A model generated the notes under the pieces. It saw nothing but the letters and a program-made list of their open reading frames with translations. It was not told where the DNA came from and searched no databases. Source: Promethearchaeota archaeon (GTDB lineage: Archaea > Asgardarchaeota > Lokiarchaeia > Sigyniarchaeales > SOKP01). Taken from it: DNA of 32,055 bases. The stretch spans positions 1 through 32,055 of the forward strand of contig JAHLWP010000040.1 of assembly GCA_019057865.1 (NCBI GenBank), in the 5' to 3' direction. Both the position numbers and the translations under genes were made by a program. Positions 5,707 through 31,157 of the stretch are shown here, one piece after another. Within the stretch, counting starts at the first letter, position 1. Every line of letters starts with the position of its first letter.

Positions 5707-7608
5707 CTATAACTTATTATCTACATAACTTTTTAAATATAATAAATAATCAAAATTATCACTATACATCGTTTGCTTACTTTCTCTTATTTCTTCTGGG
5801 TTTACGGTTTTGGAGCTAGTGCCAATTCTTTTTTTATAAATATAACTTCCATCATCTCGTAAAACACCAATAACTTTTATTGTCTGAGCAATAACGATAA
5901 TTAAACAAATCTTTTCTATATTATTCTTATCCTTTAGTTTAATTTGTTGAATATTCACAAAATTTTCATTGTACTTAGTCCGTCTTTTTATAAGATTTTT
6001 TAAATCAGTAACTCTGTTTTCTAATGAGTCATAATCCAAACCAATTATATTTCTTGGGATTTTATCTGAAATACCAATAATTAATACACCTCCTTGATTA
6101 TTAGCAAAACTAGCAATTTGTTGACAAAATTTTATTTTACTCTTGTTTAACTCTTGAATTTCTTTAATTTTCCATAAATCTAAGGTTTGTTTAAAATCCC
6201 ATAATTCTGTTTCAATTCTGTTATCTTCCATTGATTTTCGTACAAACTTAATCCAAAAATCTTCGTTGTATATAAGGGATTTTTGAAGTCTATATTTATT
6301 AATATCCATATCAAGATTTCTATAAATCTCCTCATATTTATCTTCAGGGATTTGATTAACTGTTGATTGATAATTCTCTTTTTTTAATAAATAAACTGAA
6401 CATCCATCATTACTTTCAGGTAAAAATTCACGAGAATGAGTTGTGATAAATATTTGAATTTTATCTGAAATATTTATAAATTTATCTCTTAATTTAGTTT
6501 CTAAACCAGGATGAAGATGTAATTCCGGTTCTTCTATGAAGAGAATCTTATTCTCTTTTAATTCCTTAATATATGCAAGAAAATGAATAATATTTAAAAT
6601 TCCTGCACCCATATTTTCTAATGGTAAATCAAAATCTATTTCCCTTTCTTTAAAGATAAGATATGTTCTATCTTGTTGATCAACCATTTGTCCCACTGCT
6701 ATTATGTCGGGAAGATATTCATGTAATTCTTGGTTAAAATCTAATAGCCATTGATCCTGATTTGTAACTTTTTTCATGTGAATGAATTTTGCCAGATTTT
6801 CACCATTAGGTTCTAAAATTGTACTGGTTATATTATTTCTATCAGAATCCTTCTTGAATATCCTTTTGTCAGGAATTAAAAATATAATGTCAAAAAACTT
6901 ATTTTTTAATAATTCTATTAAAAATAATAAAGCTGGATAGTCTGAAAATATATGAAGATTATTAAAAAAACTCTGAAGACTTGAGTTGACACTACCAATA
7001 TTAATATTAGGAAAATCAGTAAAAAAATTTTGAATCGTTTTATCTCTAGCAATAAGCTGAGTAATGTCAGAAACTAAGGTTTGATTTATATTATCTTTAA
7101 CTATTGCTCTTACTAATATTTGTGTTCCTATTTTTTTATGCATTGTTGAAACTTGACTAATATAGATATTTTTAATTATATTACTATATCTAATTTCTAT
7201 ATAAATTTTTGAATAACAACCTTGATCAATTAACCATTGAATTGCTACATTTTTATCTTGCCATTCATCTTTTTTAAGATGTCCTTTTAATCCTTCTGAA
7301 GAACGAAAAGCATTATTTAAGTAGTTACCATGATACAATTTTCGAAGTAATTCCCTTCTGAAAGATTTTGATAATTTAAAAGAAAAAATAATTGAAGCTT
7401 CAACTTCTTTATTATTCTCATAGATGTATCTTGAAGAAAAAGCCCCATTTTGATAATTTTCTTTTAGCATTCTAAAAATTTTAAATAAGTTAGATTTTCC
7501 AGAATTATTTTTTCCAATTAATACATTATAATTATTGAGATTAGAAAATTCTGCTCTCACATAACTTAAGAAATGAAAAAGTTCAATTTTTTCAATCTTT
7601 AATTCCAT
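5707..7608 (-). CDS. ABC/AAA (OLD/AAA_15-like) ATPase fused to a C-terminal Schlafen AlbA_2 domain
   Basis: Walker A GKNNSGKS, signature MGAG, Walker B FIEEPELHLHP and H-loop ITTHS. C-terminal ETELWDFK, IASFANNQGGVLIIGISD and KRIGTSS are AlbA_2 motifs. Likely start is ATG 7608. Confidence 0.85.
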   Translation of the reverse strand: MELKIEKIELFHFLSYVRAEFSNLNNYNVLIGKNNSGKSNLFKIFRMLKENYQNGAFSSRYIYENNKEVEASIIFSFKLSKSFRRELLRKLYHGNYLNNAFRSSEGLKGHLKKDEWQDKNVAIQWLIDQGCYSKIYIEIRYSNIIKNIYISQVSTMHKKIGTQILVRAIVKDNINQTLVSDITQLIARDKTIQNFFTDFPNINIGSVNSSLQSFFNNLHIFSDYPALLFLIELLKNKFFDIIFLIPDKRIFKKDSDRNNITSTILEPNGENLAKFIHMKKVTNQDQWLLDFNQELHEYLPDIIAVGQMVDQQDRTYLIFKEREIDFDLPLENMGAGILNIIHFLAYIKELKENKILFIEEPELHLHPGLETKLRDKFINISDKIQIFITTHSREFLPESNDGCSVYLLKKENYQSTVNQIPEDKYEEIYRNLDMDINKYRLQKSLIYNEDFWIKFVRKSMEDNRIETELWDFKQTLDLWKIKEIQELNKSKIKFCQQIASFANNQGGVLIIGISDKIPRNIIGLDYDSLENRVTDLKNLIKRRTKYNENFVNIQQIKLKDKNNIEKICLIIVIAQTIKVIGVLRDDGSYIYKKRIGTSSKTVNPEEIRESKQTMYSDNFDYLLYLKSYVDNKL

Positions 7609-7896
7609 TTTATTCCCTAAATGCAAATAATTTGTAATATAACTACAATTGATTAATATTATTATATTTTTTATAAATGTCCTCTTTTTTTTTCTCTATT
7701 TTACTTTAAAAGTAGAGATCCTAAGACTTGGAGATATGAAGATTTTTATCCAATTATACCTTCACTTTGGATTTTTTAATTGAAGTTCTAAGAGAAAAAG
7801 CTAAGGAAATTTTGAAAGAACAAAAAAGTAATAAAAATTAACCATCTTATTTTCTTTTTCTTAAAATTTGCTTTCTATTACTTTTTTACACTGGAA

Positions 7897-7995: not shown

Positions 7996-8205
7996 TAAAG
8001 ATTTAAATTTTGTCAGGAGAATAATATTTAAAATATAAAAAATGAAATTTTTCACACATAAAATCTTCATTAACCCATTATTTTGGATGACATATTTTCG
8101 ACAAGATGAATAATCCAAGCCTCATTAGTTATAGGTTCTATTGGAGAGCCCCATTCTTTTGTATTATGATGACTTGCTAAAATATGAATTAATTCATCTA
8201 ATTTT
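7996..8205 (+). repeat. 210-bp direct repeat, copy 1 (3' end of HD gene plus downstream flank)
   Basis: Identical to 30295-30504 except for one base (8025 T vs 30324 C). Confidence 0.95.
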
Positions 8206-8855
8206 TTTGATTTTATTTCTTGACTTATTATTTTAATACCATTAATAATATGTTCTTGTTTTAAAAAAGTCTCAGTGATTTCAAAAAATCCATTCTCAGT
8301 TCTATAGCAATTAATCTTACCAATATCATGTAAAATTGCTCCCGCTATTATTAAATCTTTATCAAGAATAATTTCTTTATTATCTAAATTTAAAATTATT
8401 GCCAATGAAAATTCGATTGTTTGGACTGTATGTTCTAATAATCCTCCCTTATAAGCATGATGTTTTATTTTTGCCCCTGGCGATTCAAAGAAAATAGGAT
8501 ATTTTTCAAGTGTGTCTTTTATTGATATTTTTAATTCGCGTTCTTCGATTTCTTCTATAAAACTATATAATTTTTCTCTCAAAACATCTATGCCTTCACT
8601 CGGTTTTACTTTTATGATTTTATTGCTTAAGCGATTAATTCCATACTGCCCAATATGCCATAAATGTATACTATTGAATTCAACAAAATATTTACCTCTT
8701 AGGAATTCTTTTACTTTTGGATTATCATTTAAAAGGTATTTTTGATATTCAATTACTTTAATAATATTGCCCTCTGGATTAAATTCAAGTCCATAGCGTT
8801 TAAATTTATTATTCAATCTTTTTAAATTTTCTTCTAAATTCTTGTTCAAAATCAT
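8070..8855 (-). CDS. HD-domain phosphohydrolase (YhaM/Cbf1-like), paralog 1
   Basis: SPGA..HHAYKGGLLEHT, AILHDIGK, EHI, ILASHH..EWGSPIEP.T.EA.IIH. Confidence 0.9.
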   Translation of the reverse strand: MILNKNLEENLKRLNNKFKRYGLEFNPEGNIIKVIEYQKYLLNDNPKVKEFLRGKYFVEFNSIHLWHIGQYGINRLSNKIIKVKPSEGIDVLREKLYSFIEEIEERELKISIKDTLEKYPIFFESPGAKIKHHAYKGGLLEHTVQTIEFSLAIILNLDNKEIILDKDLIIAGAILHDIGKINCYRTENGFFEITETFLKQEHIINGIKIISQEIKSKKLDELIHILASHHNTKEWGSPIEPITNEAWIIHLVENMSSKIMG

Positions 8856-9018: not shown

Positions 9019-12000
9019 TTGATAAATTTTTCAAAAGAATTAAATTGTATATATCAAAAAATTGCTGAATTGGATTATAATGAAAAATATATCCGAAAAA
9101 ATTTTTTTCATAGTCCAATTAATAGAGATGAAGCAATTAAATATATACAAGAGTTATTCCCAATTCATTTAGCTAAATCTCGTGAAATATTCAAAGAGAT
9201 TCTGACTTTCCCAACAGGTTGTGGAAGAATTAATATTTTAGATATTGGATGTGGTCCATTTACTTTTTCTCAAGCGATTTTAGAAGAACTTATTTGGCGT
9301 TCAAAAAGATATTCTAATGGGATATATAAAATTAATATCAAAGGTGTTGATTTGTCAGAGACACAATTGGAATTTGGAATGCAAATGCTAAATGATTGGA
9401 AAAAAATTAGAAAAGATTCAGGTTGGGATATTAGTACATCTCCATTAATAGATAACGCGAATTTTGATTCTTCGCATTTAGAAATAATAGATTGGATTAA
9501 AAATTCAGAGTTAGATTATTTAATAATCGGATTCAGTGCCTCAATATCATCGGGCGTTAATAGAGCCCTAAAAATAATTAAAAAGATTTTTCCATATATA
9601 AAAAATTCAAATTTCTCAATTATTATTGTAGCACCAAAAGAATATGAAAATAAAAGAGATTTGGATAAAATAAGAGAATTCTTAACAAAATTTACTTCCT
9701 TAAATTTAAACTATAAAAAACTAAAATTCTCTTTACAAAAACCTGATAGTATGGAGGTATATAGTAAAAAACGGATCATAAAAAATGTACCATTTAAAAC
9801 TCTTTTTTGTGAAAATTACATCAAAATTCATTTTTCGTATTTAAAAATATTAAATTTATTGGATTCCTATAAGAAAATGGTAATCCCTTTTAATAAAGCA
9901 AAGAGATGGCTAAATTGTAGGAAAGTAACTGATCATATTGGTCTTAAACTTTATCAATATGATTTTAATTTATCATATAATTTATTAATAAAAAATCTTT
10001 TAACTACGGGTAAATATGATTATACACAATATCCAATCAGAAAAGGACTTGATTTTCAAGCATCGAGAGAAGTATGTTTTGTACCTGTAAATATTTGTGT
10101 TCTAAATATCATCTTAATTGAGGTTTGGGGTAAGCATCTTGATAGGAGATTGCCCTCATATATTTATGGATCGCGATTAATACAAAGATTTTCGTTAAAT
10201 AGAATATTTAAAAGATATGGCTCTTTATATAGAGATTTTATACAAACTGGCTCAACAATTCCTCATAAAAGAAATATACTACTATATCAAACAGATATTA
10301 AAAATTGTTATGGAACAATTAAAAAAAAATCATTAATTAAAGATTTGAAAGATGATTTTGAAGATTTAATGGCAAGTGATTTAGGAGAACAATATTCATT
10401 TTATAGTTCTAATCCAAGCGAATCAATAGAATTAATTTTGAAATCATTAAATAATATATTTGGTGATTCTGAAGGTATTCCTATAGGATTACCTATATCT
10501 CCCATTATAGTGAATAATTTCTTAACTAAACTTGATGAAAATATTAGAGAATTACCATGTGTAAAAGATTATGGTAGATATTTAGATGATATTAGAATTA
10601 TTGTCAAAGAAGATAATACAGAACAGTTTGGAGAAAATTTTAATAAGGTAATAGACAAGAAAATAAAAGACTTAGAACTTAATCAAAAGGAAAATAAAGC
10701 TGGTAAGATTAAAACAATTGAATATTTTGGAAGTTCTATTATTCTCCAGAAAAATTCTGAACTTCAGATTTTAGAGGATATCTTCTTAGAAATAATGTAT
10801 CCGATTTATTTAGTAGGTAAGTCTTTAAGGGAGATTGATGCATTTAATACAAATTATAATAATTTGTCAGATGAACTAAGAAATATTATTATATTATTAT
10901 CATCTTCATTAAAAGAATTAGGAATCTTTATCGACCACGAGTTCTTAGAAAGGATTTTTATAACATCTTTTTTCCATAAAAAAAAGTCTAAAAGAAAAGA
11001 ATTCTCACCATTAAAAATTCCAAAAGAAATATGTAATATTTCTGAATCGAATATTTTAGCAGAAAAAATAAAAAAAATAAATATAGCATGGTATAAAAAA
11101 TATATTCAAATTCAGAATTTTATGTATAATGAATTACACGAAGAATTGTTAATTTGGGATGACATAATAAAAGATTTGGAAGATCTTTATAATAATTATG
11201 ATGATAATGAGAAAACAGAAGAATATCAATCAATGAAGAAAGAACTTTTAAAAAAATTAAGTAAAAATAAATTTATTTTATCCTTTAGAAAAATTAGATT
11301 TTTAGCATATAGATTATCTCTTATTAAAGCAATACAATTTAAGGAAAAAGATAATCCGATACTCCAAAAACTTATTAAATTTGATTTAATAGGTTTTCCA
11401 ATAAAATTAACAGGCTTATTATGTTATAGGTATGGTCATATTGATCTCCTAAAGAATAAATTAATAGAAAGTTGTAAAAGAGGACATCATCCACTTACTA
11501 GTGACGAAGAAATTTGTCCTAGAATTTATGGAAATGAAATAGGTTCTCTAATTCATCTTCTTGGTCTGTATTTTGAAGAAAATAATGATAATTTTGATTC
11601 CGATGAATGGAAAGGAGTTTTACAATTCTTTTTAGAAAATGGAAGATTTGATGAAAAATTATCAACAACGGAATTTGTATTAAGATTAAATATTAGTAGT
11701 TTATGGACTTATAATTTTTGGTTGCAATTATTAGAGCGCGAAGGCAATGTTTTCATTATAAAGAATTTAGTATTATGTGTAGCCTCACATGACCAATTAC
11801 AAAATAATATCCCTATGGAAGTAAAGAATAAATTGATTAAAATTTATAAGAAAGATGAGGTTCTTATTAATTTAGTTTTACATTTATGGAGTAAAATACA
11901 GAAAGATGGTATAAAAATTCTATTTCAAAAAGATGATGTTTTAACTCTAATTGATTTTTTCGATAAAGAAATAGATTATGAATTAGAATTGACGTCTGAC

Positions 12001-12099
12001 TATGAATGGGAAGAAGGTTTTGAGATAAACGAATTTTATGAAAGTGATGATATTCTAGATGACTTACCCGATGATTATGGAGAAGATGAATATTATTAA
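9019..12099 (+). CDS. SAM-methyltransferase / reverse transcriptase fusion (UG/Abi-DRT-like RT) with a helical C-terminal region and an acidic Tyr-rich tail
   Basis: Methyltransferase motifs ILDIGCGP and GVDLS. RT motifs IYGSR, QTDIKNCYGTI, GIPIGLPISPIIVNNFL, YGRYLDDIRI and LELNQKEN. SD GGAGTGA precedes the TTG start. Confidence 0.9.
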   Translation: MINFSKELNCIYQKIAELDYNEKYIRKNFFHSPINRDEAIKYIQELFPIHLAKSREIFKEILTFPTGCGRINILDIGCGPFTFSQAILEELIWRSKRYSNGIYKINIKGVDLSETQLEFGMQMLNDWKKIRKDSGWDISTSPLIDNANFDSSHLEIIDWIKNSELDYLIIGFSASISSGVNRALKIIKKIFPYIKNSNFSIIIVAPKEYENKRDLDKIREFLTKFTSLNLNYKKLKFSLQKPDSMEVYSKKRIIKNVPFKTLFCENYIKIHFSYLKILNLLDSYKKMVIPFNKAKRWLNCRKVTDHIGLKLYQYDFNLSYNLLIKNLLTTGKYDYTQYPIRKGLDFQASREVCFVPVNICVLNIILIEVWGKHLDRRLPSYIYGSRLIQRFSLNRIFKRYGSLYRDFIQTGSTIPHKRNILLYQTDIKNCYGTIKKKSLIKDLKDDFEDLMASDLGEQYSFYSSNPSESIELILKSLNNIFGDSEGIPIGLPISPIIVNNFLTKLDENIRELPCVKDYGRYLDDIRIIVKEDNTEQFGENFNKVIDKKIKDLELNQKENKAGKIKTIEYFGSSIILQKNSELQILEDIFLEIMYPIYLVGKSLREIDAFNTNYNNLSDELRNIIILLSSSLKELGIFIDHEFLERIFITSFFHKKKSKRKEFSPLKIPKEICNISESNILAEKIKKINIAWYKKYIQIQNFMYNELHEELLIWDDIIKDLEDLYNNYDDNEKTEEYQSMKKELLKKLSKNKFILSFRKIRFLAYRLSLIKAIQFKEKDNPILQKLIKFDLIGFPIKLTGLLCYRYGHIDLLKNKLIESCKRGHHPLTSDEEICPRIYGNEIGSLIHLLGLYFEENNDNFDSDEWKGVLQFFLENGRFDEKLSTTEFVLRLNISSLWTYNFWLQLLEREGNVFIIKNLVLCVASHDQLQNNIPMEVKNKLIKIYKKDEVLINLVLHLWSKIQKDGIKILFQKDDVLTLIDFFDKEIDYELELTSDYEWEEGFEINEFYESDDILDDLPDDYGEDEYY

Positions 12100-12231: not shown

Positions 12232-12351
12232 TTGAAATTTAAACTCATTGAAATAGAAATTGAAAACTTTCTTAGTTATAAAAAAGCTAAATTTTCAGAA
12301 TTAAAAGATTATAATGTTTTGATTGGAAAAAATATTTTAAAAGTTCTATAA
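12232..12351 (+). pseudogene. 5' fragment of an ABC/AAA ATPase gene, truncated within Walker A
   Basis: LKFKLIEIEIENFLSYKKAKFSELKDYNVLIGKN-ILKVL* aligns with MELKIEKIELFHFLSYVRAEFSNLNNYNVLIGKNNSGKS of 5707-7608. GGTGGT SD-like site upstream. Confidence 0.8.
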
Positions 12352-25788: not shown

Positions 25789-27855
25789 ATGCTAATTTCA
25801 AAAGTTTCTATAAAAAATTATCGAAATTTTCAAAATTTCAAGATTGAATTAGGTAAATTTAATTTAATATTTGGAGAAAACAATATTGGAAAAACTAATT
25901 TTATAAATGCTCTAGAAGGCATTTTAAATCCAACTCGTTCGTTTAAATCTTTTAAAATTGAAGAAAGTGATTTTATTGATATACATAAACCAATTATAAT
26001 AAAGATTAAATTTCAAAGTATTGATGAGGATAATGAATTAATCAACATCTTAGAAGATGGCATTATTGACCCTGAAATGAATTATAGTGCTAAATTAAAG
26101 TTCATTGCAAAATGGAATCCAGAAGAGAAAGACATTGATAAAGACTGCTTTTTTATTAAAAAGGAAATGAGTGATGATAATGGAAAATTTAATTTTAAAT
26201 ACGCTTATCGAAGATTATTCCATTTTTATTCTATTCCAAGTATGAGATGGGCAAGAAAAGAAATTAGGATGGATAAAAAAAGTGATTTAATGAATGTAAT
26301 TAATTATTATTTGCCAAATTTTATCATTTCTTTTTCACTTCTTAAGAAGGGGCTCCAAGAAATTCTTTTAAGTTTAAAGGAAGACTTGATTTCAGTTGAA
26401 TTCCCAAACTCAGTAATTACAGATTTAGACCATCTTATAAAACTTTTGAATCAAGAGTTTAAGATTGATGAAGAAAACAAACTTAAGAGTCTCAAGACAG
26501 ATAGAGAAAAGGTTTTTGCAAAAATAAAAGAAATTTTTAGTAATAATAGCTTTGAAAAAGGTCAAATCGATCTTATCGATGATTTATTTAATAAATTTAA
26601 TGAAAAGCTAATAATTTTTGAAAAAAGATTTGAGACTCAAAGAATTCTAAGTGATTTAAAAAAAAGGTTTTCTGATTTAAATAGCTTTAAAAATTTACAA
26701 AATGATTTTTCAGTAATTATAGAAAAAATTATGCCGAATATTAAATTAGATTTATCTTTTGTTTCAATTCAAGATAATGAGTTATTAAAAAAAGCTTTAA
26801 TCGAAATTGATGATTTTCCGATATTAGCTCATGGAACCGGATTTCAAAGTTATTTCGTTATTGCCTTAAAATTATTGAAAATAAATTCAATGCTTAATAG
26901 ACAAGATATTAAAAGTTCCTTTATAGCAATTGAAGAACCCGAAGCTCATTTATACCCACATTTGCAAAGACAATTAATTGAAAATCTTAGAGTAATTCAA
27001 AATGAATTTGAAAGTAGGTATGATATAAAATTTCAATTTATTATTACAAGTCATTCGTCAAATATCTTATCAAGATTTGAATTTCCAGAATTGATTTTAT
27101 TGAGGAAAAATGAAAATTTCTATACCGAATCGATACATTTTCCGGAAATAAGAATATTAATTGATGATTTAGAATTAGCTGAGGAAGAATATAAAAGTAA
27201 AGTGGGTAAATTAAACAAGAGCCTCATAAGGGTTTTTAAAGGAATATTTACATTCTACCCTGAAGCTTTTTTTTCACGATGCATAATTCTTGGAGAAGGT
27301 TCAACTGAAGAGGGAGCCATTCCAGAATATGCAAGAACTATGAATAAAAACTTCGACCTTTTTAGTATTTCTTACATTTCTCTTGAGGGTACAGGAAACT
27401 TAAAATATTATAAAACTATTTTAAAAAGATTAAATATTCCCTTTATTTCTATAGTTGATAAAGATGATAATGATGTGAAGGATTTTTTAAGTGACGATGA
27501 ATTTATCACCAAGGAAAAAGCATTTGAAGCTGAGATTATTTCAAAGGTACCATGTTATAAACTTCTTGATGTTTTAATAAGTCTATGTTCCGATAAAACA
27601 ATAGAAAATTATTATAATATCATTAAAAATGAATTATCTTTAACAAATGAAGTTAATAATTTTGGAGAATGCATAAATTTCTTTAAAGAGCATCTAGAAT
27701 ACGAGGATGTTTTAAAAAAAATCTTAAAACCATGGATAATTAGACAAAAAGGTCTTACGATGGGAAAATTATTAGGAGAAATTAGTGAATTAGAGGAAAT
27801 TCCAGAGATATATAAAGAAGTTATCAATAAAGCAGTTGAAAAAACTAAGAGTTAA
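25789..27855 (+). CDS. gajA: OLD-family ATP-dependent nuclease (Gabija GajA-like)
   Basis: GENNIGKT, HGTG signature, IAIEEPEAHLYPHLQR and ITSHS. TOPRIM motifs FFSRCIILGEGSTE and VDKD. Confidence 0.85.
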   Translation: MLISKVSIKNYRNFQNFKIELGKFNLIFGENNIGKTNFINALEGILNPTRSFKSFKIEESDFIDIHKPIIIKIKFQSIDEDNELINILEDGIIDPEMNYSAKLKFIAKWNPEEKDIDKDCFFIKKEMSDDNGKFNFKYAYRRLFHFYSIPSMRWARKEIRMDKKSDLMNVINYYLPNFIISFSLLKKGLQEILLSLKEDLISVEFPNSVITDLDHLIKLLNQEFKIDEENKLKSLKTDREKVFAKIKEIFSNNSFEKGQIDLIDDLFNKFNEKLIIFEKRFETQRILSDLKKRFSDLNSFKNLQNDFSVIIEKIMPNIKLDLSFVSIQDNELLKKALIEIDDFPILAHGTGFQSYFVIALKLLKINSMLNRQDIKSSFIAIEEPEAHLYPHLQRQLIENLRVIQNEFESRYDIKFQFIITSHSSNILSRFEFPELILLRKNENFYTESIHFPEIRILIDDLELAEEEYKSKVGKLNKSLIRVFKGIFTFYPEAFFSRCIILGEGSTEEGAIPEYARTMNKNFDLFSISYISLEGTGNLKYYKTILKRLNIPFISIVDKDDNDVKDFLSDDEFITKEKAFEAEIISKVPCYKLLDVLISLCSDKTIENYYNIIKNELSLTNEVNNFGECINFFKEHLEYEDVLKKILKPWIIRQKGLTMGKLLGEISELEEIPEIYKEVINKAVEKTKS

Positions 27856-27861
27856 AAAATT

Positions 27862-29628
27862 ATGACAAGAGATTCATCACAAGAAGAAATTATTTATTCT
27901 GATATAAATAAATCATATTTGGTTATAGCTCCACCTGGTTATGGCAAAACTTTTACAATGGGGCGAAGAATCAAATATATTATTGAAAATAAAAAGATTT
28001 CTGGTAAATTAATTGGATTAACATTTACTAATGCTGCAGCAAATGAAATGTTTAACAGATTAGATATTGATGATAATATTTTAGAAAAAAAAGTGTATAT
28101 TACAACATTTCATTCTTTTTGTTATAATATTTTAAGAAATTATGGATCAAAAATAGAGTTAAATCAGAGATTTAATATTATTAGTCCAATTGAGAGAGAA
28201 GATTTATTAAAAAAAAATTTAATTGATTTGGGTATTAATCAAGATTCAATTGATAATGTTTATAAAAATGATTTCTCAGAATGGATTCTTGAAAAACGTT
28301 TAAAACTAAATGAAGGATACAAAAACCAAGATTTTGAAGAAATCTTCAATAAAGCTTATGATGATTACGAGAATAACTTGAAAAACGAAAATAAGCTGGA
28401 TTTCAACTATTTAATCATAAAAGTTATAGAACTATGGAAAAAATATCCTGTCATACTTAATTTCTATCGTAAAAAATATGAGTATGTGTTAGTAGATGAA
28501 TTCCAAGATTCTAATATGATACAATATCAAATTTTTAAATATTTAATAAATGGTGTTGAAAAACCTGGAACTAATAGTAAAAAATTAAATTTTATGTGTT
28601 TTGGTGATGATTTTCAGTCAATTTTCATATTCCAAGGAGCTCTCTCCAATGAATTAAGGATAATCTTAGATGATTTTGACTATGAAATTAAAGAATTAAG
28701 AGTAAATCACAGAACTACTTCTTCATTAATCAAATCTATCAATTTATATTTAAGAAAAGGAGAATTATCGACGCTTGGTATTAATAATAAGATTGATTGT
28801 TATTTATTTAATAATGTGGAAGAAGAAGCAATATTTATTTTAGAAAAAATCAAAGAGTTTCAAAAAGGTGGGATTGCACTTGATGATATATGCATAATTT
28901 CAAGAATGTATTTTCGTCTTAATAATATTAAAGAATTATTTGAAAATAACGATCTAGAATTTATATATTTAAAGGATTTTAGAAATGATACAATTGAAAG
29001 AAAATACTTGAACTTTTTCAATAAATTTGATGAAATTATATTAGAACAAAGGAAATCTGGTAAAATATCAAGTATTTTTATGCAAATCTGTGAGAATAGT
29101 GGTTATGACTTTGATAATGATATTGTGCTTCAGACAATTTATGAATATATTAAAGACTATGAATTAAGGAAAGATATTAAAAAATATCACTTATGGGAAA
29201 AAATTCAGTTAATCAAGAATGATATGTTGTTAGAATTGAATTGGGGGGAAAAGATTAGAGAAAAAACTAAAGGTAAAATTTATCTATCATCGGTACATCA
29301 AGTAAAAGGATTAGAGTTTTCAAAAGTCATTTTTGTAGGACTAGAAAATTTTGAATTCCCACACCCTAGAATTTGTATTAAAAAGTGTATAAATAATGAA
29401 GTTATTAATATTCAAGAGGAAAAAAATATTCTTTATGTTGGAATTAGTAGAACAAAATCTAACCTTATTTTAACATCTTTAAAACAAATCCTTAATAGAG
29501 AGGGTAAAATAAAGAAGAGAACTCTAAGTTGTCTTTTACAAGATATAGAACATTTTATAAATATTATAGATATCAATAATCCCCTGTCATCGGTAACTTT
29601 TGATTCAAAAAAGTGCTGGAATTGTTAA
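27862..29628 (+). CDS. gajB: UvrD-like SF1 helicase (Gabija GajB-like)
   Basis: APPGYGKT, LTFTNAAA, TFHSF, VDEFQD, GDDFQSIF, NHR, SVHQVKGLEF, LYVGISR. Begins 7 bp after the OLD nuclease stop. Confidence 0.85.
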   Translation: MTRDSSQEEIIYSDINKSYLVIAPPGYGKTFTMGRRIKYIIENKKISGKLIGLTFTNAAANEMFNRLDIDDNILEKKVYITTFHSFCYNILRNYGSKIELNQRFNIISPIEREDLLKKNLIDLGINQDSIDNVYKNDFSEWILEKRLKLNEGYKNQDFEEIFNKAYDDYENNLKNENKLDFNYLIIKVIELWKKYPVILNFYRKKYEYVLVDEFQDSNMIQYQIFKYLINGVEKPGTNSKKLNFMCFGDDFQSIFIFQGALSNELRIILDDFDYEIKELRVNHRTTSSLIKSINLYLRKGELSTLGINNKIDCYLFNNVEEEAIFILEKIKEFQKGGIALDDICIISRMYFRLNNIKELFENNDLEFIYLKDFRNDTIERKYLNFFNKFDEIILEQRKSGKISSIFMQICENSGYDFDNDIVLQTIYEYIKDYELRKDIKKYHLWEKIQLIKNDMLLELNWGEKIREKTKGKIYLSSVHQVKGLEFSKVIFVGLENFEFPHPRICIKKCINNEVINIQEEKNILYVGISRTKSNLILTSLKQILNREGKIKKRTLSCLLQDIEHFINIIDINNPLSSVTFDSKKCWNC

Positions 29629-30307: not shown

Positions 30308-30504
30308 TTTGTCAGGAGAATAACATTTAAAATATAAAAAATGAAATTTTTCACACATAAAATCTTCATTAACCCATTATTTTGGATGACATATTTTCGA
30401 CAAGATGAATAATCCAAGCCTCATTAGTTATAGGTTCTATTGGAGAGCCCCATTCTTTTGTATTATGATGACTTGCTAAAATATGAATTAATTCATCTAA
30501 TTTT
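30295..30504 (+). repeat. 210-bp direct repeat, copy 2
   Basis: 209/210 identical to 7996-8205. Confidence 0.95.
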
Positions 30505-31157
30505 ACCGACTTGATTTCTGAAGAAATAATCTTTATACCATGGATAATATGTTCTTGTTCATGAAAAATATCTGTTATTTCAATAATTCCATTAGAAAAT
30601 TCATAACAATTTATTTTTCCAATATCGTGAAGAATAGCCCCAGCAATTAATAAATCTTGATCGATGATTAAATTTTCAATAACATCATTTACAGCTAAAG
30701 CTAATTTAACTGTTTGAATTGTATGCTCTAATAATCCTCCTTCATAATTATGGTGATTATATTTAGCTCCTGGAGTTTCATAAAACATTTTGTTTTTTTC
30801 GAAAAACTCTTTTATAGAATTTTTTAATTCGCTATCTTTAATCATTTCAATATATTCCCATAATTCACTTCTTAAAGTATCAATACTTTTCGAAGGCTTT
30901 ATTTTTACTATTTTTCTAATTAGTCTTTTTATTCCTGCTTTCCCTATGAACCAAAATTTTTGATCCCAATTAAAAGCAATTAAGTATTGATCTTTTAATG
31001 CTTGTTTTAGTTTTGGATTATTTGTAATTACATAATCATCATTAATTTTGATTATATCTCCATTATATTCAAATTGAATCTCTAATGGTTCATATTTTTT
31101 ATTTAATAATTTTATATTTTCTTCCAGAATTTTTGACATTTTTACTACTCGATTCAA
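30369..31157 (-). CDS. HD-domain phosphohydrolase (YhaM/Cbf1-like), paralog 2
   Basis: TPGAKYNHHNYEGGLLEHT, AILHDIGK, ILASHH..WGSP. Start may be ATG 31139. Confidence 0.9.
   Translation of the reverse strand: MNRVVKMSKILEENIKLLNKKYEPLEIQFEYNGDIIKINDDYVITNNPKLKQALKDQYLIAFNWDQKFWFIGKAGIKRLIRKIVKIKPSKSIDTLRSELWEYIEMIKDSELKNSIKEFFEKNKMFYETPGAKYNHHNYEGGLLEHTIQTVKLALAVNDVIENLIIDQDLLIAGAILHDIGKINCYEFSNGIIEITDIFHEQEHIIHGIKIISSEIKSVKLDELIHILASHHNTKEWGSPIEPITNEAWIIHLVENMSSKIMG

What the first reader, a model, noticed from the sequence alone, without database searches (positions are those of the whole stretch)
11965..12099. Acidic, tyrosine-studded RT C-terminal tail ending in YY: possible protein primer
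Seen: the tail EIDYELELTSDYEWEEGFEINEFYESDDILDDLPDDYGEDEYY is about half D/E and has six Tyr, including the last two residues. Known: AbiK and Abi-P2 prime DNA synthesis on their own tyrosines, and DRT9 uses C-terminal tyrosines. Inference: this flexible tail may mimic nucleic acid, enter the RT active site and prime covalently linked DNA, or act as an autoinhibitor.
Basis: partly seen in the sequence, partly recalled or inferred. Interest (0 to 1): 0.7.

Follow-up and report, generated by a model that had tools for sequence, protein, structure and literature searches.

The report
Acidic tail of archaeal defence polymerase
The extremely acidic, tyrosine-tipped end of a rare archaeal methyltransferase-reverse-transcriptase is real and partly conserved, but its tyrosines are not kept in relatives, so it is more likely a regulatory or docking tail than the site where DNA synthesis starts.

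Summary
Bases 11965-12099 encode K983-Y1026 plus the stop of a 1026-aa ORF (9019-12099, +). The last 43 residues hold 21 D/E and six Tyr and end in YY. This is the most acidic C-terminus among 2,332 long ORFs of the genome. The Tyr density alone is near chance.

The protein has an N-terminal SAM methyltransferase, a reverse transcriptase (RT) with YLDD, and alpha-helical repeats. It is collinear with UG35/UG25, and its closest folds are AbiA, DRT4, DRT6 and AbiK. Only about 11 relatives turned up in the collections searched. The gene sits in a defence island of an archaeon.

The "tail" has two parts:
- Residues 985-1001 are the best-conserved segment of the whole family and are predicted helical.
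- Residues 1008-1026 are a disordered polyanionic extension found only in the exonuclease-less clade.

No tail Tyr is invariant. A Tyr within the last four residues occurs in 7 of 11 sequences. It is absent from the two closest relatives, one of which has no Tyr in its last 60 residues. Known priming tyrosines are essentially invariant within their families, so the primer reading is weakened (about 15%).

I favour a non-catalytic, DNA-mimicking regulatory or sensor tail. The scan earlier noted a similar tail on a DRT6-like enzyme in another genome.

The parts
9019..12099 (+). Whole gene: 1026-aa methyltransferase-RT-alphaRep protein (TTG start, TAA stop)
   Evidence: ORF list and translation. 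The start aligns with M1 of homologue P0003. AF2 model: pLDDT 81.9, pTM 0.87.
9019..9819 (+). N-terminal class I SAM-methyltransferase-like domain (aa 1-267), motif I LDIGCGP at aa 74-80
   Evidence: Invariant motif in the family. Fold matches METTL17/Rsm22-type methyltransferases, Z 17-18 over model 1-270. Collinear with the methylase part of a true UG35 protein by hhalign.
9820..10758 (+). Reverse-transcriptase fingers and palm (aa 268-580) with motif A D426 and Y521-L-D523-D524
   Evidence: Pfam RVT_1 E 5.9e-11. PADLOC UG/DRT models. Z about 19 to group II intron RTs over 269-570. Catalytic residues are invariant in P0001, P0003 and P0004.
10759..11970 (+). All-helical alphaRep-like domain (aa 581-984)
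   Evidence: AF2 secondary structure. Foldseek top hits AbiA, DRT4/UG15, DRT6 and AbiK over 580-760 columns. For homologue P0006, DRT4 9vdo aligns 442 residues, Z 12.5.
11971..12039 (+). Conserved acidic-aromatic C-terminal motif (aa 985-1007): predicted helix 987-999 plus short helix 1003-1006; holds Y987, Y995 and Y1007
   Evidence: Mean pairwise identity 0.52 for 985-1001, against 0.35-0.39 for the RT, methyltransferase and alphaRep bodies. E990 is invariant. pLDDT about 70 here and 74-78 in the P0006 model.
12040..12096 (+). Clade-specific disordered polyanionic extension (aa 1008-1026), ending in Y1025-Y1026; holds Y1020
   Evidence: pLDDT 26-32. Present only in clade A (P0001, P0003, P0004, P0007). 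Most clade B proteins stop at or just after the position of Y1007.
8070..8855 (-). Divergently transcribed YhaM-like HD 3'-5' exonuclease, a possible partner of the RT
   Evidence: Pfam HD. NCBIfam YhaM E 9e-21 and PDB YhaM 9h3f E 7e-16. A homologue (33% identity, E 1e-20) lies directly downstream of the RT homologue P0004.

Best explanation
The C-terminus is a two-part, non-catalytic regulatory module on a Class-1-like Abi/UG polymerase.

Part 1 (aa 985-1007) is a family-wide acidic-aromatic helix that packs on the enzyme body.

Part 2 (aa 1008-1026) is a floppy polyanionic extension with an aromatic tip. It most likely behaves as a single-stranded-DNA mimic. In the resting state it would occupy a basic nucleic-acid surface or channel of the enzyme (autoinhibition). 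Alternatively, or in addition, it could be captured by an ssDNA-binding protein, such as a viral SSB or annealing protein, which would couple infection to enzyme activity.

If DNA synthesis is protein-primed, as in all characterised Class 1 enzymes, it more probably starts on one of the invariant or near-invariant tyrosines of the body (Y338, Y404, Y518, Y703, Y764, Y805, Y943).

Shown here: the architecture, the conservation pattern, the predicted disorder and the charge. Inferred: DNA mimicry, autoinhibition or sensing, and where priming occurs.
For: Charge is what is kept. Net charge of the tail is -10 to -20 in all four clade A proteins, while the sequence and the Tyr positions drift.

The tail is the most acidic C-terminus in the genome. 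The methyltransferase and RT domains are net +9 and +12, which gives a complementary basic body.

The extension is predicted disordered (pLDDT 26-32). The tip of the short-tailed homologue P0006 is also floppy, whereas the core helix is moderately confident in both models.

An aromatic last residue occurs in 7 of 11 family members (Y in six, F in one) at different tail lengths. The genome background is about 11% for a Y or F last residue. By my own knowledge, this resembles the aromatic-tipped acidic tails of bacterial SSB and of T7 gp2.5 and gp4, which dock on partners.

There is precedent in the same enzyme class. The flexible C-terminal subdomain of DRT4 binds a phage SSB and licenses activation, and C-terminal residues of AbiK are needed for defence.

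The benchmark for primers is strict conservation: DRT4 Y125 is conserved in 174 of 174 homologues and the DRT9 tyrosines are strongly conserved. The tail tyrosines here fail that benchmark.
Against: The recurring Tyr within the last four residues (7 of 11) would also suit priming. DRT9 shows that a C-terminal tail can prime.

Only about 11 sequences exist and they are related, so the conservation statistics are weak.

Clade B and P0010 lack the extension, so it is not needed for the family's core activity.
Confidence: 0.42

Rival explanations
1. One reading: a tail tyrosine (Y1025/Y1026, Y1020 or Y1007) swings into the RT active site and its hydroxyl primes covalently attached DNA, as DRT9 does with Y496/Y498.
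For: All characterised Class 1 Abi/UG enzymes are protein-primed, and their priming residues lie in flexible elements at varied places. DRT9 primes from two Tyr in an acidic context near its C-terminus. Seven of 11 family members have Tyr within the last four residues. The tip is disordered and so could reach the active site. In several structural alignments of the P0001 model to RT-only chains, the aligned range ends at 1001-1025, which hints that the tail lies near the palm. This is suggestive only: the ranges give first and last residues, and it was seen in only one row for the P0006 model.
Against: The sister sequences P0003 (ends in S) and P0004 (no Tyr in its last 60 residues), plus P0013 and the G119 homologue, lack a terminal Tyr. 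No tail Tyr is invariant, and Y995 is F or L in eight of the nine other aligned sequences (a gap in the ninth). Priming Tyr are essentially invariant in the families studied. Invariant or near-invariant Tyr exist elsewhere in the protein. Tyr density in the tail is near chance for this AT-rich genome.
Confidence: 0.15
2. The tail is a docking motif for a dedicated partner of the system. The candidate is the adjacent YhaM-like HD 3'-5' exonuclease, and the docked nuclease would stand in for the DEDDh exonuclease that clade B carries as an N-terminal fusion.
For: The long acidic extension occurs only in the exonuclease-less clade A (4 of 4) and in none of the exonuclease-fused proteins P0005, P0006 and G119. 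A homologous YhaM-like HD gene flanks the RT in two of four clade A loci, and locus L005 also has a separate DEDD exonuclease gene. In DRT4 the ssDNA product is held in check by host 3'-5' exonucleases.
Against: The correlation is confounded by phylogeny (one clade against another), and P0010 lacks both features. No HD domain was on record among the neighbours of P0003 or P0007 on their short contigs. A 60%-identical HD paralogue in this window sits far from any RT. No binding test was possible.
Confidence: 0.15
3. The extension 1008-1026 is a functionally neutral low-complexity appendix produced by drift in an AT-rich genome. Only the conserved helix 985-1007 matters, as a structural cap of the alphaRep domain.
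For: The extension aligns poorly even among clade A members and is absent from clade B and P0010. It is predicted disordered. Tyr, Asp and Glu codons with A or T in the third position suit a 24% GC genome.
Against: Strong net negative charge is kept in four diverged clade A proteins (31-44% identity). It is the extreme outlier among 2,332 C-termini of the same genome. An aromatic end recurs at different tail lengths.
Confidence: 0.15

Closest known systems
UG35 / UG25 methylase-RT fusions (Class 1 UG/Abi; Mestre et al. 2022, PMC9226505)
   Same: The domain order is the same: N-terminal methyltransferase, then RT, then alpha-helical repeats. hhalign of the family profile against a true UG35 protein (P0065, Nodularia) is collinear over 655 columns, probability 98.3%. 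The PADLOC UG25 model aligns from the methylase into the alphaRep region.
   Different: Scores are very weak (UG25 51 bits, against 1168 bits for a true UG35 on its own model). RT-only hits to UG5, UG34 and Drt3a score higher. There is no adjacent DUF1848 or UvrD partner. The one UG35 protein examined has a basic, not acidic, C-terminus. The host is archaeal. Clade B adds an N-terminal DEDDh exonuclease.
DRT9 (UG28) reverse transcriptase, C-terminal priming tyrosines Y496/Y498 (PMC12483538)
   Same: There are tyrosines in an acidic context close to the C-terminus of a defence RT. DRT9 is the precedent for a tail that primes.
   Different: DRT9 is a Class 2 RT without alphaRep, uses an ncRNA template, and its two Tyr are strongly conserved. 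Here there is an alphaRep domain, no Rfam match was found, and the tail Tyr are not conserved.
DRT4 (UG15), DRT6 (UG12), AbiK and AbiA protein-primed template-independent polymerases
   Same: These are the best structural matches over RT plus alphaRep. The priming Tyr sits in different places in different families. In DRT4 the flexible C-terminal subdomain senses a phage SSB, and 3'-5' exonucleases trim the product.
   Different: They have no methyltransferase domain, and no polyanionic tail is reported in the passages I read. Sequence identity is only 10-14%. Biochemistry for this family is unknown.
Aromatic-tipped acidic C-terminal tails of ssDNA-handling proteins (bacterial SSB, T7 gp2.5 and gp4); from my own knowledge, not tested here
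   Same: A disordered D/E-rich tail ending in an aromatic residue, used as a DNA mimic and partner-docking element.
   Different: The proteins and folds are unrelated. The resemblance is in composition only.

Membership tests
Class 1 UG/Abi reverse transcriptases | UG/Abi-type RT domain with an intact catalytic YxDD | tested here: met
   Pfam RVT_1. Twenty-four PADLOC RT models matched, with UG/DRT models best. D426 and Y521-L-D523-D524 are invariant in the three closest family members.
Class 1 UG/Abi reverse transcriptases | C-terminal alpha-helical repeat (alphaRep) domain fused to the RT | tested here: met
   AF2 predicts an almost entirely helical region from 573 to 1006. Foldseek top hits are AbiA, DRT4/UG15, DRT6 and AbiK over 580-760 columns. 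DRT4 aligns 442 residues to the P0006 model.
Class 1 UG/Abi reverse transcriptases | Protein-primed, template-independent DNA synthesis in a homo-oligomer | not testable with these tools
   This needs biochemistry. It is known for AbiK, AbiA, Abi-P2, DRT4, DRT6 and DRT7.
UG25 / UG35 | N-terminal methyltransferase fused to the RT | tested here: met
   Motif I is invariant. METTL17/Rsm22-like fold, Z 17-18. Collinear hhalign to a true UG35 protein.
UG25 / UG35 | Strong match to the group's own profile | tested here: not met
   UG25 gives E 1.9e-14 (51 bits) and UG35 is not listed, while a true UG35 protein scores 1168 bits. UG5, UG34 and Drt3a RT-only hits score higher.
UG25 / UG35 | Associated DUF1848 gene (UG25) or UvrD-like helicase (UG35) | tested here: not met
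   The immediate neighbours are a YhaM-like HD gene and a PAS gene. The only UvrD gene is 15 kb away, paired with an OLD-type ATPase. No such partner appears in the homologues' loci.
Tail-primed RT (DRT9-like mechanism) | Conserved tyrosine(s) in the C-terminal tail | tested here: not met
   Tyr lies within the last four residues in 7 of 11 sequences. None is invariant, and it is absent in the closest relatives P0003 and P0004.
Tail-primed RT (DRT9-like mechanism) | Tail tyrosines predicted next to the YxDD site | tested here: inconclusive
Alignment ranges only hint at proximity to the palm.
Tail-primed RT (DRT9-like mechanism) | Associated structured ncRNA template | tested here: inconclusive
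   No Rfam family reached its gathering score anywhere in the window. A new RNA would not be detected this way.

The most novel reading that the evidence does not exclude
The polyanionic, aromatic-tipped tail is an ssDNA-mimicking bait on an archaeal (apparently Asgard) Class-1-like polymerase. It would keep the enzyme shut until a viral ssDNA-binding or annealing protein grabs it. In this clade it would work together with a stand-alone YhaM-like exonuclease that replaces the fused DEDDh exonuclease of the sister clade. That would make it a self-contained 'polymerase plus product-trimming nuclease plus decoy tail' immune module, not described in the literature I searched for any organism.
Probability: 0.12. 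Interest if true: 0.75.

Novelty: new variant of a known kind. Interest (0 to 1): 0.4.

Why it matters
Defence reverse transcriptases of the Abi/UG type start DNA on their own side chains and sense infection through poorly understood C-terminal regions. Almost all of this knowledge comes from bacteria.

This gene represents a very rare lineage, found here in archaeal genomes and in metagenomes. It has about 11 sequences in the collections searched and occurs in 2 of 400 genomes of its phylum. It combines a methyltransferase, the polymerase and a link to 3'-5' exonucleases.

Its end carries the family's best-conserved motif plus an extreme acidic tail. Learning whether that tail primes, inhibits or senses would show how such enzymes are controlled. 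As it stands, the specific primer claim is weakened, and the rest is a testable lead rather than a discovery.

Tried and rejected
- Complex prediction: body (aa 290-980) against tail (aa 981-1026). No verdict (score 0.11, mark 0.32), so it counts neither way.
- Looking for more family members to enlarge the set of C-termini: a word-index search with the C-terminal alignment found only the near-identical fragment P0011. A metagenome contig scan gave only distant RTs. A genome contig scan gave nothing. A phylum-wide genome search gave 2 of 400.
- Model coordinates are not exposed, so distances from the tail Tyr to D523/D524 could not be measured.
- PIP-box reading (Qxx[ILM]xx[FY][FY]), checked by eye: P0001 and P0003 fit only partly (no Q), and the Exo-clade ends do not fit. 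Rejected.
- Atg8-interacting [WFY]xx[LIV] motif, checked by eye: no tail aromatic is followed by L, I or V at +3. Rejected.
- A frameshift as the cause of the G119 homologue's Tyr-less end: the DNA around its T-run gives no FYY in another frame. Rejected.
- A second RT next to the second HD paralogue at the window's end: none found by tblastn or the ORF list.
- ncRNA near the RT: no Rfam hit.
- Hydrophobic-moment scan of the core helix: values are low (0.0-0.4), so there is no clear amphipathic signature.
Full report
**1. The observation**

The ORF 9019-12099 (+) is 1026 aa long, with a TTG start and a TAA stop. Its start aligns with Met1 of the nearest homologue.

Bases 11965-12099 are codons K983 to Y1026 plus the stop. 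It contains 21 D/E in 43 residues and six Tyr (Y987, Y995, Y1007, Y1020, Y1025, Y1026).

- Within the protein, the acidity is far from chance (binomial P about 1e-9).
- Six Tyr in 45 residues is not remarkable (P = 0.027). The protein is 5.2% Tyr and another window near residue 294 is equally Tyr-rich.
- Among 2,332 ORFs of 200 aa or more in the window's own genome, this is the most acidic C-terminal 45-mer: net -20, against a mean of +1.0 and s.d. 3.7. Ten of those ORFs end in YY. The last residue is Y in 4.1% and F in 6.7%.
- A fragment from another contig on record (P0011) carries an identical tail.

**2. What the protein is**

- Pfam finds RVT_1 at residues 415-572.
- PADLOC gives many UG/DRT RT models. 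The UG25 model aligns collinearly from residue 68 to 785.
- The AF2 model built on the family alignment is confident (pLDDT 81.9, pTM 0.87). It shows a Rossmann-type domain at 1-267, RT fingers and palm at 268-580, and an almost entirely helical region to 1006.
- The N-terminal domain matches METTL17/Rsm22-type methyltransferases (Z 17-18). The RT matches group II intron RTs (Z about 19).
- Over RT plus helical repeats, the best Foldseek matches are AbiA, DRT4/UG15, DRT6, AbiK and Abi-P2. For homologue P0006, DRT4 aligns over 442 residues.
- hhalign of the family profile against a true UG35 protein is collinear over 655 columns, with probability 98.3%.
- Mestre et al. describe UG25 and UG35 as the methylase-RT fusions of Class 1 and note that UG/Abi RTs are rare in Archaea.
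- The catalytic residues D426 and Y521-L-D523-D524 are invariant in the three closest family members.

The gene is therefore a divergent relative of the methylase-fused Class 1 Abi/UG polymerases. It is not a member of UG25 or UG35 by profile score or by partner genes.

**3. Setting**

The window is 24% GC and reads as a defence island. It holds:
- a Pycsar effector domain and a TIR protein;
- an ABC-ATPase fused to Schlafen/AlbA_2;
- DUF3800;
- an OLD-type ATPase with a UvrD helicase;
- two YhaM-like HD genes.

A Ras-family GTPase, together with archaeal genes in homologues' loci (HerA-NurA-Mre11-Rad50 and a histone-fold gene), points to an archaeon. The first-stage notes call it Asgard; I did not test that directly.

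The family is tiny and sporadic. Exhaustive HMMER over 1.8 billion representatives gave 11 proteins below 1e-30. The gene is found in 2 of 161 genomes of the class and 2 of 400 of the phylum.

**4. Anatomy of the tail across the family**

Eleven C-termini are available. A maximum-likelihood tree separates two clades:
- Clade A: P0007, then P0001, then P0003 with P0004. These have no exonuclease domain.
- Clade B: P0005, the G119 homologue, P0006 and P0008. The complete members carry an N-terminal DEDDh exonuclease.
- P0010 sits on a long basal branch.

The "tail" falls into two parts.

*Part 1, residues 985-1001.* This is the best-conserved stretch of the whole family. Mean pairwise identity is 0.52, against 0.35-0.39 for the methyltransferase, RT and alphaRep bodies.
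- In most members the consensus is a hydrophobic residue, then DLDYEL, a basic residue, S, IF, E/D, W, E/D, E/D, GF.
- E990 is invariant.
- It is predicted helical with pLDDT about 70 in P0001 and 74-78 in P0006.

*Part 2, residues 1008-1026.* This extension exists only in clade A.
- Most clade B proteins stop at or just after the residue aligned with Y1007.
- It is predicted disordered, with pLDDT 26-32.
- Its sequence drifts but its charge does not: the tail's net charge is -20, -19, -10 and -14 in the four clade A proteins.

**5. The tyrosines**

| Residue | State across the family |
|---|---|
| Y987 | Unique to P0001 |
| Y995 | F or L in eight of the nine other aligned sequences; a gap in P0007 |
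| Y1007 | Tyr in 6 of 8 aligned sequences; F in the G119 homologue |
| Y1020, Y1025, Y1026 | Lie in the clade-specific extension |

- A Tyr within the last four residues occurs in 7 of 11 sequences: P0001, P0005, P0006, P0007, P0008, P0010 and P0012.
- It is missing in P0003 and P0004, which together form the sister group of P0001, and in P0013 and the G119 homologue. P0004 has no Tyr in its last 60 residues.
- The G119 end is not a frameshifted FYY.
- By contrast, Y12, Y167, Y338, Y521 and Y805 are invariant, and Y103, Y404, Y518, Y703, Y764 and Y943 nearly so.

The literature benchmark is strict:
- DRT4's priming Y125 is conserved in 174 of 174 homologues.
- DRT9's Y496 and Y498 are strongly conserved.
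- Priming residues of Class 1 enzymes lie in the fingers (AbiK Y44, Abi-P2 Y61), the palm (DRT4), the RT-alphaRep linker (AbiA) or an alphaRep helix (DRT7).

An aromatic last residue in 7 of 11 members, against a background of about 11%, still shows that the tip is not random.

**6. How it most likely works**

What selection keeps is a strong negative charge, predicted disorder, a hydrophobic or aromatic tip and a conserved helix in front of it. The hydroxyl groups are not kept. This is the signature of acidic DNA-mimicking tails that fold back on a basic nucleic-acid surface or dock on partners. Bacterial SSB and T7 gp2.5 and gp4 are examples, from my own knowledge.

The methyltransferase and RT domains of P0001 carry net +9 and +12.

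Within the same enzyme class, DRT4's flexible C-terminal subdomain binds a phage SSB and licenses activation, and AbiK needs its C-terminal residues.

I therefore favour a non-catalytic regulatory tail, acting by autoinhibition and/or as a sensor, at about 0.42. The rivals are:
- tail priming, about 0.15;
- docking of the neighbouring YhaM-like exonuclease, about 0.15;
- a neutral appendix, about 0.15.

The exonuclease idea rests on three things. The extension occurs only in the exonuclease-less clade. A homologous HD gene flanks the RT in two of four clade A loci. DRT4 products are trimmed by 3'-5' exonucleases. It is confounded by phylogeny, and a second HD paralogue sits far from any RT.

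**7. Limits**

The only geometric hint is that several RT-only chains align to the P0001 model with ranges ending at 1001-1025. This was seen in only one row for the P0006 model.
- The complex prediction gave no verdict.
- The family has few, related sequences.

**8. Verdict**

The acidity is exceptional, and the first half of the "tail" is in fact the family's signature motif. The primer interpretation is weakened but not excluded.

The feature is a new variant within a known kind, a Class-1-like Abi/UG polymerase. If that note holds, such tails recur in this enzyme class. I did not test it.

Noticed in passing
window 12232-12351 (+): A 39-codon ORF 133 bases after the RT stop. It is 59% identical over 34 residues to the N-terminus of the ATPase-Schlafen gene at 5707-7626 (-). 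It looks like the decayed stump of a second ABC-type ATPase gene, a sign of gene turnover next to the RT.
   Followed up: partly
window 8070-8855 (-) and 30369-31157 (-): Two YhaM-like HD 3'-5' exonuclease paralogues, 60% identical overall, with their last 40 or so residues identical. One is divergent from the RT; the other lies about 740 bases beyond the end of the OLD/UvrD pair. A homologue also follows the RT homologue in L005.
   Followed up: partly
L001 1436-4927, L009 5044-8535, L015 1501-5004 (-): Clade B relatives (1163-1167 aa) carry an N-terminal DEDDh (RNase_T) exonuclease fused to the methyltransferase-RT-alphaRep body. L005 has a separate DEDD exonuclease gene two genes from the RT. 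This is a recurrent link between the polymerase and 3'-5' exonucleases.
   Followed up: partly
window 9019-9819 (+): By fold, the methyltransferase domain of the RT protein is closest to the mitochondrial ribosome-assembly methyltransferases METTL17/Rsm22 (Z 17-18), not to DNA methyltransferases of restriction systems. Its substrate is unknown.
   Followed up: no
window 25789-29628 (+): An OLD-type ATPase with a TOPRIM domain, followed 6 bases later by a UvrD-family helicase. This is a Gabija-like pair in an archaeal genome.
   Followed up: no
window 10030-10032, 10228-10230 and 11431-11433 (codons of Y338, Y404, Y805): Tyrosines in the body of the protein that are invariant or nearly so (Y338 beside the fingers IPK-like motif, Y404 before a low-confidence loop, and Y703, Y764, Y805 and Y943 in alphaRep helices). 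They are better candidates than the tail for a priming residue.
   Followed up: partly
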